A stretch of 64,000 nucleotides of DNA from Octopus vulgaris (taxonomy: Eukaryota). The stretch covers positions 58,838,001-58,902,000 of the forward strand of contig OX597832.1 of the NCBI GenBank assembly GCA_951406725.2. The letters run 5' to 3'. Each line of letters opens with the position of its first letter. Position 1 is the first letter of the stretch. The notes below the pieces were generated by a model. The model did no database searches and had not been told where the DNA came from. It saw only the letters and a list, made by a program, of their open reading frames with translations. This document shows positions 16,783-40,513 of this stretch, piece by piece. Made by a program: the position numbers and the translations under genes.

Positions 16783-16855
16783 TTGTCTTAATAACTGATG
16801 AGGGGCCGGAGCAGACTTCAGCCCCGGCATCCGAAACTGAGTTTTATTATGACAA
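16783..16855 (+). ncRNA. Type I hammerhead ribozyme (intact core, long stem I)
   Basis: ttgtcttaataa-CTGATGA-ggggccgg..ccggcatcc-GAAA-ctgag-TT-ttattatgacaa; stem I 11/12 bp, GUU triplet. Confidence 0.8.
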
Positions 16856-37868: not shown

Positions 37869-38735
37869 ATACATACATATATGTAAATGTATATGACTGT
37901 GTACGTGTGTGTGTGTGTGTGTGTGTATTTGAAAATGTATATGAATGCGCGTGCGTAGTTGTCTCTTCGCCAGCAAGACAAAAATAACTAAAGTAAAATG
38001 AAATAAAATAAGAACGGAGCATTGAAAAAGAAAATAAATAATAAAAGCAAAAGTGAGCAGAAATATAAATTAAAAGCAGAGGAAATAAAGAACTCTGGAA
38101 ATGGAACCGAGGAATTTTATCAGATCATTTGCGAAGATGAAGCTAAGAAGAGGTTCTTACCTGAAGGTAAAAATATTCCTTCTTAATGAAGATCGTTGCA
38201 TTGGAAGACTATGGAGACAACAAGTAAAACAGAAAAAAAAATAATCATGATAGAAGAATGCACTCGCACGCACACAGTCGCACACATACACACACACGCA
38301 CGCACGCAAGCACAAACCGACAGTAACAAACACAATGCCACCCACAATCATATACATATTCACACATATACCCCCACACATAGAAATATATATATATATA
38401 TATATATAATATAATATATAATATATATACACATATATATAATATATATACACATATATATATATATATATACGAATACAGAGGGGTGCATATATGTATG
38501 TGCACACGCATATACACATATCTAATTTTAAAAATTTATATGCATATACTGTATATGTATGTATATGTGTGTGTGTGTTTGTGTGCGCGTGCTTGTCTTT
38601 GTATTTATATGTATGTATACCCACAAATACGCTCACTGAAACATGCATGTTTTTGCAAATAACTATGCATGCGTGTGTGTATACAAACGCAATCATATGC
38701 GTACTTACATATGTATATGTATATATATATATATA

Positions 38736-38892
38736 CTTTATTTAAAAGCAGCAGAAATATAACGAAATCTGTAACTCAGAGTTTCACGTTCCCGTTCGTC
38801 GGACAGATTTGTTTAAAAAAACTGTCCGACGAACGGGAACGTGAAACTCTGAGTTACAACTTTTGTTATATTTCTGCTGCTTTTAAATAAAG
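38736..38892. ncRNA. Palindrome carrying a hammerhead motif on each strand (38765-38810 minus; 38822-38858 plus)
   Basis: aaatctgt-CCGACGA-acg(ggaa)cgt-GAAA-ctctgag-TT-acagattt; U4C in both arms. Confidence 0.7.
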
Positions 38893-38996
38893 CATAATAC
38901 GTTACGTCTGGCAGTTGAGTACTTTTTTTTCCACCTTGTTTCACTGCACACATTTTTCTTCTCTCCTTGTTTCTCTCATTGTTTCTTTCTGTCTTC

Positions 38997-39032
38997 CTTT
39001 CTGTGGAAGAGCGTAGGCTCGAAACATTAAAG
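38997..39032 (+). ncRNA. Hammerhead-like motif with A6U variant
   Basis: cttt-CTGTGGA-a-gagc(gtag)gctc-GAAA-ca-TT-aaag; same family as 51372-51409. Confidence 0.5.
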
Positions 39033-40009
39033 AGTTTTTCAATTCCTGAGCATTATTCTAATACATCTGTTTATTTTCTACACCACCTGTCTTCGTCTTT
39101 TGTTTTTTTCGTGAATTCTCCCTATTTATATATATGTGTATATATATATATATATATAAATTAAATTAAAGATAAAACCACTATTAGGTAAATCAAAAAG
39201 TGAAGAATATAAATCAAAACATAAAACTAAAAATAATTAATATAATATACAGAATATATAAAATATAAAATTTAAAAATTCAAATTATTTAAATTTAAAA
39301 TTCAAATTATTAATTTATATTTACAAATTTTTATATTTTTTAAATATTAAAATTTTTTTTTATTAAATATATATAACTATCAAAAAGAATTAAATGTTTA
39401 ATATAAGATAAAAAGTAAAACCACAACATACATTTATTGCCCATAACCTAATTCGAATTACAATAATTTAAATTCAATTAATAATTCGAATTATGGTTAT
39501 AGTCAATCTTCAGGTTAAAGATAATAGTTAAATAAATAAGCAAATATATTTAAACAATATTTTTTAAGAAATAAATAAAATAATAATTTTTCTTATAAAA
39601 AACTTTATTATCAAACTAGAAACTTTAAAGATTATGATTATGTCATACAATCTAATTATAATGTTAAATATTAATTTTTAAGGTATATATATATATAGTA
39701 TGTGGTTTTATGCATACAGTTATGGGAAGAAGTATCCCCCTTACTACATGATTCCGGGTTCAGTCCCACTGTGTGACTCCTTGGGCAAGTGCCTTGAGCT
39801 TAGCCTTGGGCCGATTAAATCCTTGTGTGGATATTGTTGACGGCCACTGAACGAAGCTTGACGTATGTGTGTTTACACACCCACAGATATATATATATAT
39901 AAATATATTTAAAATTAAGGATAAAATCTTTATAAGAAATTATCAGTAGTTAGCGTGAAAAACCTCGTAAGAGAAAAAATCTGTAAATTTTTCCACTTTG
40001 AAAATATTT

Positions 40010-40437
40010 ATTTATATTATATAGAGGGTACTATTATTGATAGGTACCGCACGCTAGGAGGGACTCTTGCAGTCAAAACTGCTAAAATAAACAAATTGTA
40101 CCGAATGCAAAACTTCAAAGCAAGTCATTTAAAAACAGAATTTAGTTACATATCACCTGTGATTTCGCAATCAATGCAGAATATGCATTCTATGCTCTTC
40201 AGTGCAACGAACTCAGACATGTCTTGAGTTACATGTCTTGAGTTCGTTGCACGGAAGAGCATAGAATGCATATTCTGCATTGATTGCGAAATCACAGGTG
40301 ATATGTAACTAAATTCTGTTTTTAACTGACTTGCTTTGAAGTTTTGCATTTGTTTATTTTAGTAGTTTTGACTGCATGAGTCCCTCCTAGCGTGCGGTAC
40401 CTATGAATTATAGTATCCTCTATATAATATAAATATA
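40010..40437. repeat. ~430-bp fold-back (about 200-bp arms) with a hammerhead in each arm
   Basis: Arms taggtaccgcacgctaggagggactc..gttacatatcacctgtgatttcgc..cttcagtgcaacgaactca and its reverse complement; short acatgtcttgagtt duplication at the centre. Confidence 0.9.
40145..40208 (-). ncRNA. Type I hammerhead ribozyme (intact core); mirror copy at 40246-40309(+) has CGGAAGA
   Basis: Reverse complement gttgca-CTGAAGA-gca..tgc-GAAA-tcacaggtga-TA-tgtaac; AUA triplet. Confidence 0.8.
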
Positions 40438-40513
40438 TATAATTATATATACATATAATTTAAATGATATATATATGCACATATACATACGTATATGTGC
40501 ATACATCCATAGG

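What the first reader, a model, noticed from the sequence alone, without database searches (positions are those of the whole stretch)
40010..40437. Large fold-back with a hammerhead in both polarities
Seen: two ~200-bp near-identical inverted arms, each containing a full HHR (minus strand intact CUGAAGA/AUA; plus strand U4G), with a short duplicated spacer. Transcription from either side gives a long dsRNA rod that includes a ribozyme. This formally resembles ambisense viroid-like RNAs. The simpler reading is an inverted pLTR produced by Penelope-type 5' inversion. A long duplex like this would also be a candidate ADAR or Dicer substrate in a lineage known for heavy RNA editing (inference).
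Basis: partly seen in the sequence, partly recalled or inferred. Interest (0 to 1): 0.7.

Follow-up and report, generated by a model that had tools for sequence, protein, structure and literature searches.

The report
Head-to-head Penelope-type retrozyme insertion
This mirror-image stretch is two shortened copies of a common 492-base mobile repeat that carries a hammerhead self-cutting-RNA motif, joined head to head as about half of the sampled insertions of that repeat are; it was likely left by Penelope-type retrotransposon enzymes and is an ordinary example of a described pattern, not a viroid-like replicating unit.

Summary
The fold-back is real: 201 of 220 columns match, with a type I hammerhead in each arm (minus copy intact, plus copy U4G) and a 14-nt duplication at the turn. 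It is not an amplified unit: its junction occurs once in the 2.8-Gb genome. The arms are pieces of a 492-nt non-coding tandem repeat (non-LTR retrozyme type; 314 exact core hits). Of 129 independent family loci, 65 are head-to-head inversions with almost all-different junctions. Their outer ends follow a strict rule: one arm ends at site A, the other 104 nt further at site B (55 A+B, 1 B+B, 0 A+A). This matches the one-sided tail of Penelope-like elements. Both arms share subfamily alleles. A sister family does the same, and its compensatory stem changes support the hammerhead fold. In a read-through transcript the ribozyme is predicted to be locked in the duplex (97 kcal/mol cost), and each strand has only one core, so the ambisense-viroid analogy fails. 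Neptune-type RT/GIY-YIG elements in this genome also show head-to-head inversions, but no direct partner was found. Expression and cleavage are untested. The scan reported this pattern before on other DNA, including this genome. Low interest.

The parts
39887..39902 (.). (TA)n run flanking the left outer end (likely target site)
   Evidence: 106 of 130 outer ends of inverted loci have (TA)4 within 30 nt
39903..40222 (-). 5'-truncated copy of the 492-nt monomer ending at 3' site B (monomer positions about 470-479 to 302)
   Evidence: 96% to the natural trimer L092
39903..40003 (-). About 100-nt A-to-B tail, present on this arm only and unpaired in the fold-back
40145..40208 (-). Type I hammerhead motif with intact core (CUGAAGA, GAAA, AUA triplet); predicted cut between 40151 and 40150
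40217..40244 (+). Inversion junction: 6-nt palindrome followed by a 14-nt tandem duplication; unique in the genome
40229..40440 (+). 5'-truncated copy of the monomer ending at 3' site A (positions 469 to 198), with a private 10-nt deletion
40246..40309 (+). Type I hammerhead motif with U4G at 40253 (G in 2 of 88 arms, a rare and likely post-insertion change)
40432..40452 (.). AT-rich/(TA)n run flanking the right outer end

Best explanation
The locus is one head-to-head insertion of two 5'-truncated copies of a 492-nt hammerhead-bearing non-coding repeat (non-LTR retrozyme type), likely made in trans by a Penelope-like RT/GIY-YIG enzyme. Shown: the family, its tandem monomer, the roughly 50% inversion rate, the A+B end rule, (TA)n flanks, distinct junctions and shared alleles between arms. 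Inferred: the enzyme nicks both strands of a (TA)n target; one nick primes cDNA at internal site A and the other at site B on the same RNA or on sibling RNAs; the two cDNA ends then join through short inverted microhomology, here the 6-nt palindrome plus a 14-nt slip. After insertion the arms drifted apart (8 substitutions, a 10-nt deletion, U4G). The two hammerheads are a by-product of where the cDNAs stopped. In read-through RNA the ribozyme is predicted to be trapped in the duplex, so this copy is probably inert.
For: Junction 28-mer: 1 hit genome-wide at up to 1 mismatch. Core 24-mer: 314 exact hits. Natural dimers and a trimer with 485-495-nt period. 45 of 89 loci inverted and 24 of 44 in a second sample chosen by another motif. 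After dropping 4 loci that share flanks with another locus: 65 of 129 inverted, 55 A+B, 1 B+B, 0 A+A, 9 other; 59 distinct junctions among 60 simple inversions; 7 of 60 have a whole hammerhead in both arms. Arms of one locus differ by a median 3.0% against 6.5% between loci (27 loci); 11 of 336 diagnostic-site comparisons disagree and none of 33 loci has 3 or more. In 25 of 54 A+B loci the A arm holds more than 20 nt absent from the B arm, so it cannot be a snap-back copy of it. 5' ends lie within 15 nt in 15 of 60 loci against 4.3 by permutation. Sister family (459 nt): 16 A+B of 18 classified inverted loci. RT plus GIY-YIG ORFs in this genome; 2 of 5 such loci checked show long head-to-head inversions. 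Literature passages: PMC8557442, PMC3846280, PMC11167929, bioRxiv 10.64898/2026.07.22.740005.
Against: No coding partner with sequence homology to the monomer was found among 50 GIY-YIG loci fetched, of 150 scored and 6136 candidates, and no PLE ORF fragment abuts a copy in the same orientation in 210 loci. The tail here is 104 nt, longer than the 30-40 nt described. Only 11 of 54 B arms stop within the tail, so simple twin priming on one linear RNA does not fit without strand displacement or two RNAs. Gene conversion between arms could also explain shared alleles. The isolated hammerhead is not the minimum-energy fold (z -0.6; 4-6 kcal/mol above the ensemble). Samples are the first 100 listed exact hits of each of two motifs (contigs C1-C7), so they favour young copies.
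Confidence: 0.85

Rival explanations
1. Self-priming or snap-back: one cDNA folds back at a micro-palindrome and is copied, giving the inverted arm (a self-priming model is discussed in PMC3846280).
For: Arms share alleles; excess of coincident 5' ends; this window's junction sits on a palindrome, as do several others; in 29 of 54 A+B loci the A arm is contained in the B arm.
Against: In 25 of 54 A+B loci the A arm holds sequence that the B arm lacks, and every B arm holds the tail that the A arm lacks. Snap-back gives no reason for the strict stop at A. It may still describe a subset, including this locus.
Confidence: 0.2
2. The palindrome is a mobile or RNA-replicating unit with a working ribozyme in each polarity (ambisense viroid-like).
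For: A hammerhead motif lies on each DNA strand and the RNA would be a long rod.
Against: Junction unique; the only repeated junctions share their flanks, so they are segmental copies; plus core U4G; one core per strand; no antisense core in the monomer; ribozyme fold costs about 97 kcal/mol in read-through RNA; viroid-like agents are circular RNAs without a DNA counterpart (PMC10162972 passages).
Confidence: 0.02
3. Assembly or read fold-back artefact.
For: Inverted repeats beside microsatellites are hard to assemble (PMC8557442 passage); no reads were laid.
Against: Arms differ by 8 substitutions and a 10-nt deletion, are of unequal length, and obey the same A+B rule as 55 other loci and a sister family.
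Confidence: 0.02
4. The hairpin has been co-opted by the host as a dsRNA source (ADAR, Dicer).
For: About 200 bp of near-perfect duplex if transcribed.
Against: Arms have drifted like neutral copies (4%); the structure is one of many; none of the 8 arm differences is A/G, which says nothing on RNA editing itself.
Confidence: 0.05

Closest known systems
Metazoan non-LTR retrozymes (PMC7229834; bioRxiv 10.64898/2026.07.22.740005)
   Same: Non-coding, low-GC (31%) tandem monomer with one type I hammerhead per unit; dispersed monomers, dimers and a trimer; monomer predicted to be well self-paired (z -4.4).
   Different: 492 nt is longer than the 150-450 bp in PMC7229834 but within the 51-972 bp of the preprint. 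Circular RNA and cleavage are untested here. The word 'inverted' does not occur in the main text of PMC7229834.
Insertions of endonuclease-bearing Penelope-like elements with an inverted 5'-truncated copy and one-sided tail (PMC8557442 Fig. 2; Pen2a_Av in PMC3846280)
   Same: Head-to-head inverted copy, tail at one end only, palindromes or microhomology at the junction, AT-rich/(TA)n targets.
   Different: No ORF; tail 104 nt rather than 30-40 nt; coding partner not identified.
Anolis Poseidon element PAc in vitro (PMC11167929)
   Same: Two internal reverse-transcription start sites that define the tail, cleavage and extension of both target strands, a predicted dimer and AT-rich targets would explain the A+B rule.
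   Different: Biochemistry on another clade and species; nothing was assayed here; the parts read do not describe how inverted insertions form.
Viroid-like circular RNAs with paired ambisense ribozymes (PMC10162972)
   Same: A ribozyme motif on each strand and a rod-like fold.
   Different: Here it is genomic DNA, the two motifs are exact inverted copies that pair with each other, one is mutated, and the unit is not amplified.

Membership tests
Type I hammerhead ribozyme | Core CUGANGA / GAAA / NUH with three stems, stem I open | tested here: met
   Minus copy. Plus copy fails at U4 (U4G).
Type I hammerhead ribozyme | Stems kept by compensatory change | tested here: met
   7 of 13 pairs change on both sides over 9 hand-picked sequences of three sister families, 96.6% of cells paired, slid controls 19-44%; only about three lineages, so few independent events.
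Type I hammerhead ribozyme | Match to an Rfam hammerhead model | tested here: not met
   No hammerhead family at E<=1 on 10 kb or E<=10 on 109 nt of the mutated plus arm; the minus arm was not rescanned alone.
Type I hammerhead ribozyme | Self-cleavage | not testable with these tools
   No assay. Indirect and weak: 12 5' ends just downstream of the cut site against 2 just upstream, post hoc p=0.02.
Non-LTR retrozyme | Short non-coding tandem repeat with a type I hammerhead in consecutive units | tested here: met
   Family level: L057, L060, L092, L026. This locus itself is not a tandem.
Non-LTR retrozyme | Expressed as monomeric linear and circular RNA | not tested
   No reads were laid.
Penelope-like (EN+) mobilised element | Inverted 5'-truncated copy with tail at one end; AT-rich target | tested here: met
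Penelope-like (EN+) mobilised element | Own RT plus GIY-YIG ORF, or homology to the pLTR of a coding element | tested here: inconclusive
   No such ORF in or beside the monomer; no homology to 50 of the 150 scored GIY-YIG loci; the search was partial.
Penelope-like (EN+) mobilised element | Target-site duplication | tested here: inconclusive
   Both ends lie in (TA)n, where a duplication cannot be told from the target.
Ambisense viroid-like RNA | A distinct ribozyme in each polarity of one unit-length replicating circle | tested here: not met
   Monomer has no antisense core; fold-back traps the motif; junction unique.
Ambisense viroid-like RNA | Replicates without a DNA counterpart | tested here: not met
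   It is a chromosomal locus of G000.

The most novel reading that the evidence does not exclude
This young retrozyme family records the Penelope insertion mechanism in numbers: a two-headed enzyme always primes one target strand at site A and the other at site B, 104 nt apart, on copies of one source RNA (possibly a ribozyme-made circle or multimer), so half of all insertions are born as long hairpins that lock their own ribozyme and could feed Dicer or ADAR to silence the family. The 492-nt non-coding RNA would then be a minimal substrate for reconstituting inverted Penelope insertion in vitro.
Probability: 0.35. Interest if true: 0.55.

Novelty: new member of a known kind. Interest (0 to 1): 0.24.

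Why it matters
The single locus matters little: it is a probably inert insertion of a described shape. The family-level counts are of modest use. How Penelope-like elements make tandem and inverted insertions is still called undefined (PMC8557442 passages), and the A+B rule with same-template arms is a constraint that any model must meet. It also supports, from insertion anatomy in an invertebrate, the proposal that animal retrozymes use Penelope machinery (bioRxiv 10.64898/2026.07.22.740005, which studied mainly vertebrates).

Tried and rejected
Rfam scans found no hammerhead model; only hairpin-type microRNA models below their gathering scores. Sequencing-run search: no RNA holder listed; 20 of 24 rows hold part of the stretch, none half of its words; no reads were laid, so expression, editing, small RNAs and read support for the junction remain open. 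Search for the coding partner: GIY-YIG scan, nucleotide comparison of 30 plus 20 loci and tblastn of two PLE proteins against 210 loci gave none; L188 holds an old inverted copy of the family about 1.1 kb from a GIY-YIG fragment, read as a separate insertion and not followed up. One family of coding elements (L212, L223, L184) has a type I hammerhead motif downstream of its ORF but no alignable similarity to the monomer. Open frames of 140-190 codons on the antisense strand of the monomer were not tested for coding. No PLE ORF was recognised by eye among the 91 window ORFs of 110 aa or more (not scanned against Pfam). Repeated junctions (L036/L048/L049/L050, L141/L143) were checked as possible amplified palindromes and rejected because flanks are shared. 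Pile-up of 5' ends at the cut site is weak and post hoc. A look-up of earlier findings by sequence returned nothing. A paper search for Penelope + inverted + tail + twin priming returned one unrelated review (listing only); octopus + Penelope + hammerhead returned no description of this family in 4 listings. Subscription papers are not in the library, and supplements were not read.

Full report
Observation. The fold-back is in the sequence. Arms 40004-40222 and 40231-40440 align with 201 matches, 8 mismatches and 11 gap columns and fold at -332.8 kcal/mol, z -47.6. A both-strand scan of the window found three type I hammerhead-like motifs: one in each arm and one unrelated at 16795. The minus-strand motif has an intact core and an AUA triplet; the plus-strand motif has U4G. 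The turn holds a 6-nt palindrome and a 14-nt tandem duplication.

Is the hammerhead real? Rfam gave no hammerhead hit, and the isolated motif is not the minimum-energy fold, lying 4-6 kcal/mol above the ensemble. Against that, two sister families keep the core and stem III unchanged while stems I and II change in step: 7 of 13 pairs change on both sides, 96.6% of cells pair, and slid controls reach 19-44% (nine hand-picked sequences, about three lineages). Cleavage was not assayed. U4G is seen in 2 of 88 arms, so it is likely decay after insertion; that U4 is a conserved core position is recalled knowledge.

What the arms are. The window is G000:C19:58838001-58902000 in a 2.8-Gb assembly. An earlier scan note calls the animal an octopus; I did not test that. 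A single arm matches many loci (40 scored of 2079 candidates); an exact 24-mer of the core has 314 hits and one near the 3' end 292. Natural dimers and a trimer give a 485-495-nt period. The monomer is 31% GC, has no antisense core, and folds as a circle better than shuffles (z -4.4, 40 shuffles). This fits non-LTR retrozymes as described in PMC7229834 (passages seen) and bioRxiv 10.64898/2026.07.22.740005 (parts 1-3 of 5 read), which argues that they are non-autonomous Penelope derivatives.

Is the palindrome a unit? No. The 28-nt junction has one hit, the window itself. I mapped the 89 loci behind the first 100 listed core hits (45 inverted) and 44 further loci behind the first 100 listed hits of the second motif (24 inverted). 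Four loci share flanks with another locus and were dropped. Of the remaining 129, 65 are head-to-head; the 60 simple ones have 59 distinct junctions, and 7 carry a whole hammerhead in both arms. Two hammerheads back to back are thus what results when both copies happen to extend past the motif.

End rule. With C3 of the core as position 0, copies end at A (198) or B (302). Among the 65 inverted loci, 55 are A+B, 1 B+B, none A+A, 9 have an unassigned end; 106 of 130 outer ends have (TA)4 within 30 nt. In the first sample 37 of 38 assignable loci were A+B, p about 1e-10 before duplicates were removed. A 459-nt sister family (314 of 512 columns identical) gave 16 A+B, 1 B+B and 1 unassigned among 18 classified inverted loci of 29 examined, a set chosen for length. 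The window fits: left arm B, right arm A. PMC8557442 (passages) and PMC3846280 (passages) describe an inverted 5'-truncated copy with a tail at only one end and AT-rich targets. PMC11167929 (parts 1-2 of 4) shows two internal start sites that define the tail, extension of both target strands and a predicted dimer.

Template of the two arms. Arms of one locus differ by a median 3.0% against 6.5% to other loci (27 loci). At subfamily sites 11 of 336 comparisons disagree and none of 33 loci has three or more. So both arms come from one RNA or sibling RNAs, unless later conversion evened them out. Snap-back copying cannot explain 25 of 54 A+B loci, where the A arm holds more than 20 nt that the B arm lacks. 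Only 11 of 54 B arms stop within the tail, so priming on one linear RNA would need strand displacement, a multimer or two RNAs. 5' ends coincide within 15 nt in 15 of 60 loci against 4.3 expected (p 2e-4), several on small palindromes, as expected if two cDNAs of the same polarity join through self-complementary spots. These steps are inferred.

Enzyme. The genome holds many GIY-YIG frames, some of 781 codons. Two of four proteins scanned carry both RT and GIY-YIG (the RT scores fall just below Pfam's cut-off). They have a cysteine motif before the endonuclease, as PMC8557442 describes for Neptune and Nematis; the clade was not tested by a tree. Two of five such loci checked show head-to-head inversions of 766 and 1446 nt, and several copies end in (TA)n at two alternative positions. 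None of the 50 loci fetched is homologous to the monomer next to its ORF, so the partner is unidentified.

Function of this copy. From either side a read-through transcript meets the antisense arm first. Forcing the hammerhead costs about 97 kcal/mol, against 4-6 in a single arm or a tandem. Each strand has one core, so no unit can be excised. Viroid-like agents carry paired ribozymes on a circle that replicates without DNA (PMC10162972, passages). The analogy fails on each tested point. A duplex of this length would be an ADAR or Dicer substrate if transcribed (recalled knowledge; one search was a listing only), but no reads were laid and nothing marks this locus out.

Verdict. A new member of a known kind. 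The scan has reported the same pattern in this and other genomes; my reading was recorded before those notes were seen. Interest 0.24. The added value is the family-wide A+B rule with same-template arms.

Noticed in passing
window 38732-38896 and about 38995-39030: A second fold-back (165 nt, 92%) followed by a minimal hammerhead-like remnant; probably an inverted insertion of another Penelope-type family.
   Followed up: no
window 16787-16851 (+): A third type I hammerhead-like motif of another family; similar motifs occur in L226 and L184.
   Followed up: no
L063, L231-L260: Young sister retrozyme-type family, 459-nt monomer, with a different stem I and a short stem II; same A+B rule; 1817 first-look candidates.
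   Followed up: partly
L245:2454-2515 (-): A third sister variant of the hammerhead with yet another stem II.
   Followed up: partly
L211, L212, L228-L230: RT plus GIY-YIG retroelements with open frames of up to 781 codons, some with long head-to-head inversions, suggesting recent activity.
   Followed up: partly
sample: 5' ends are more frequent just downstream of the hammerhead cut site (12) than just upstream (2); a possible footprint of cleaved templates or of RT stalling; post hoc p=0.02.
   Followed up: partly
L036, L048, L049, L050 (C1): One inverted insertion copied four times together with its flanks, which hold LINE-like endonuclease and zinc-finger frames (read by eye); it may have travelled inside a larger element or duplication.
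   Followed up: partly
L028:1495-1963: Two A-ended copies tail to tail across one (TA)n run, probably two independent insertions.
   Followed up: no
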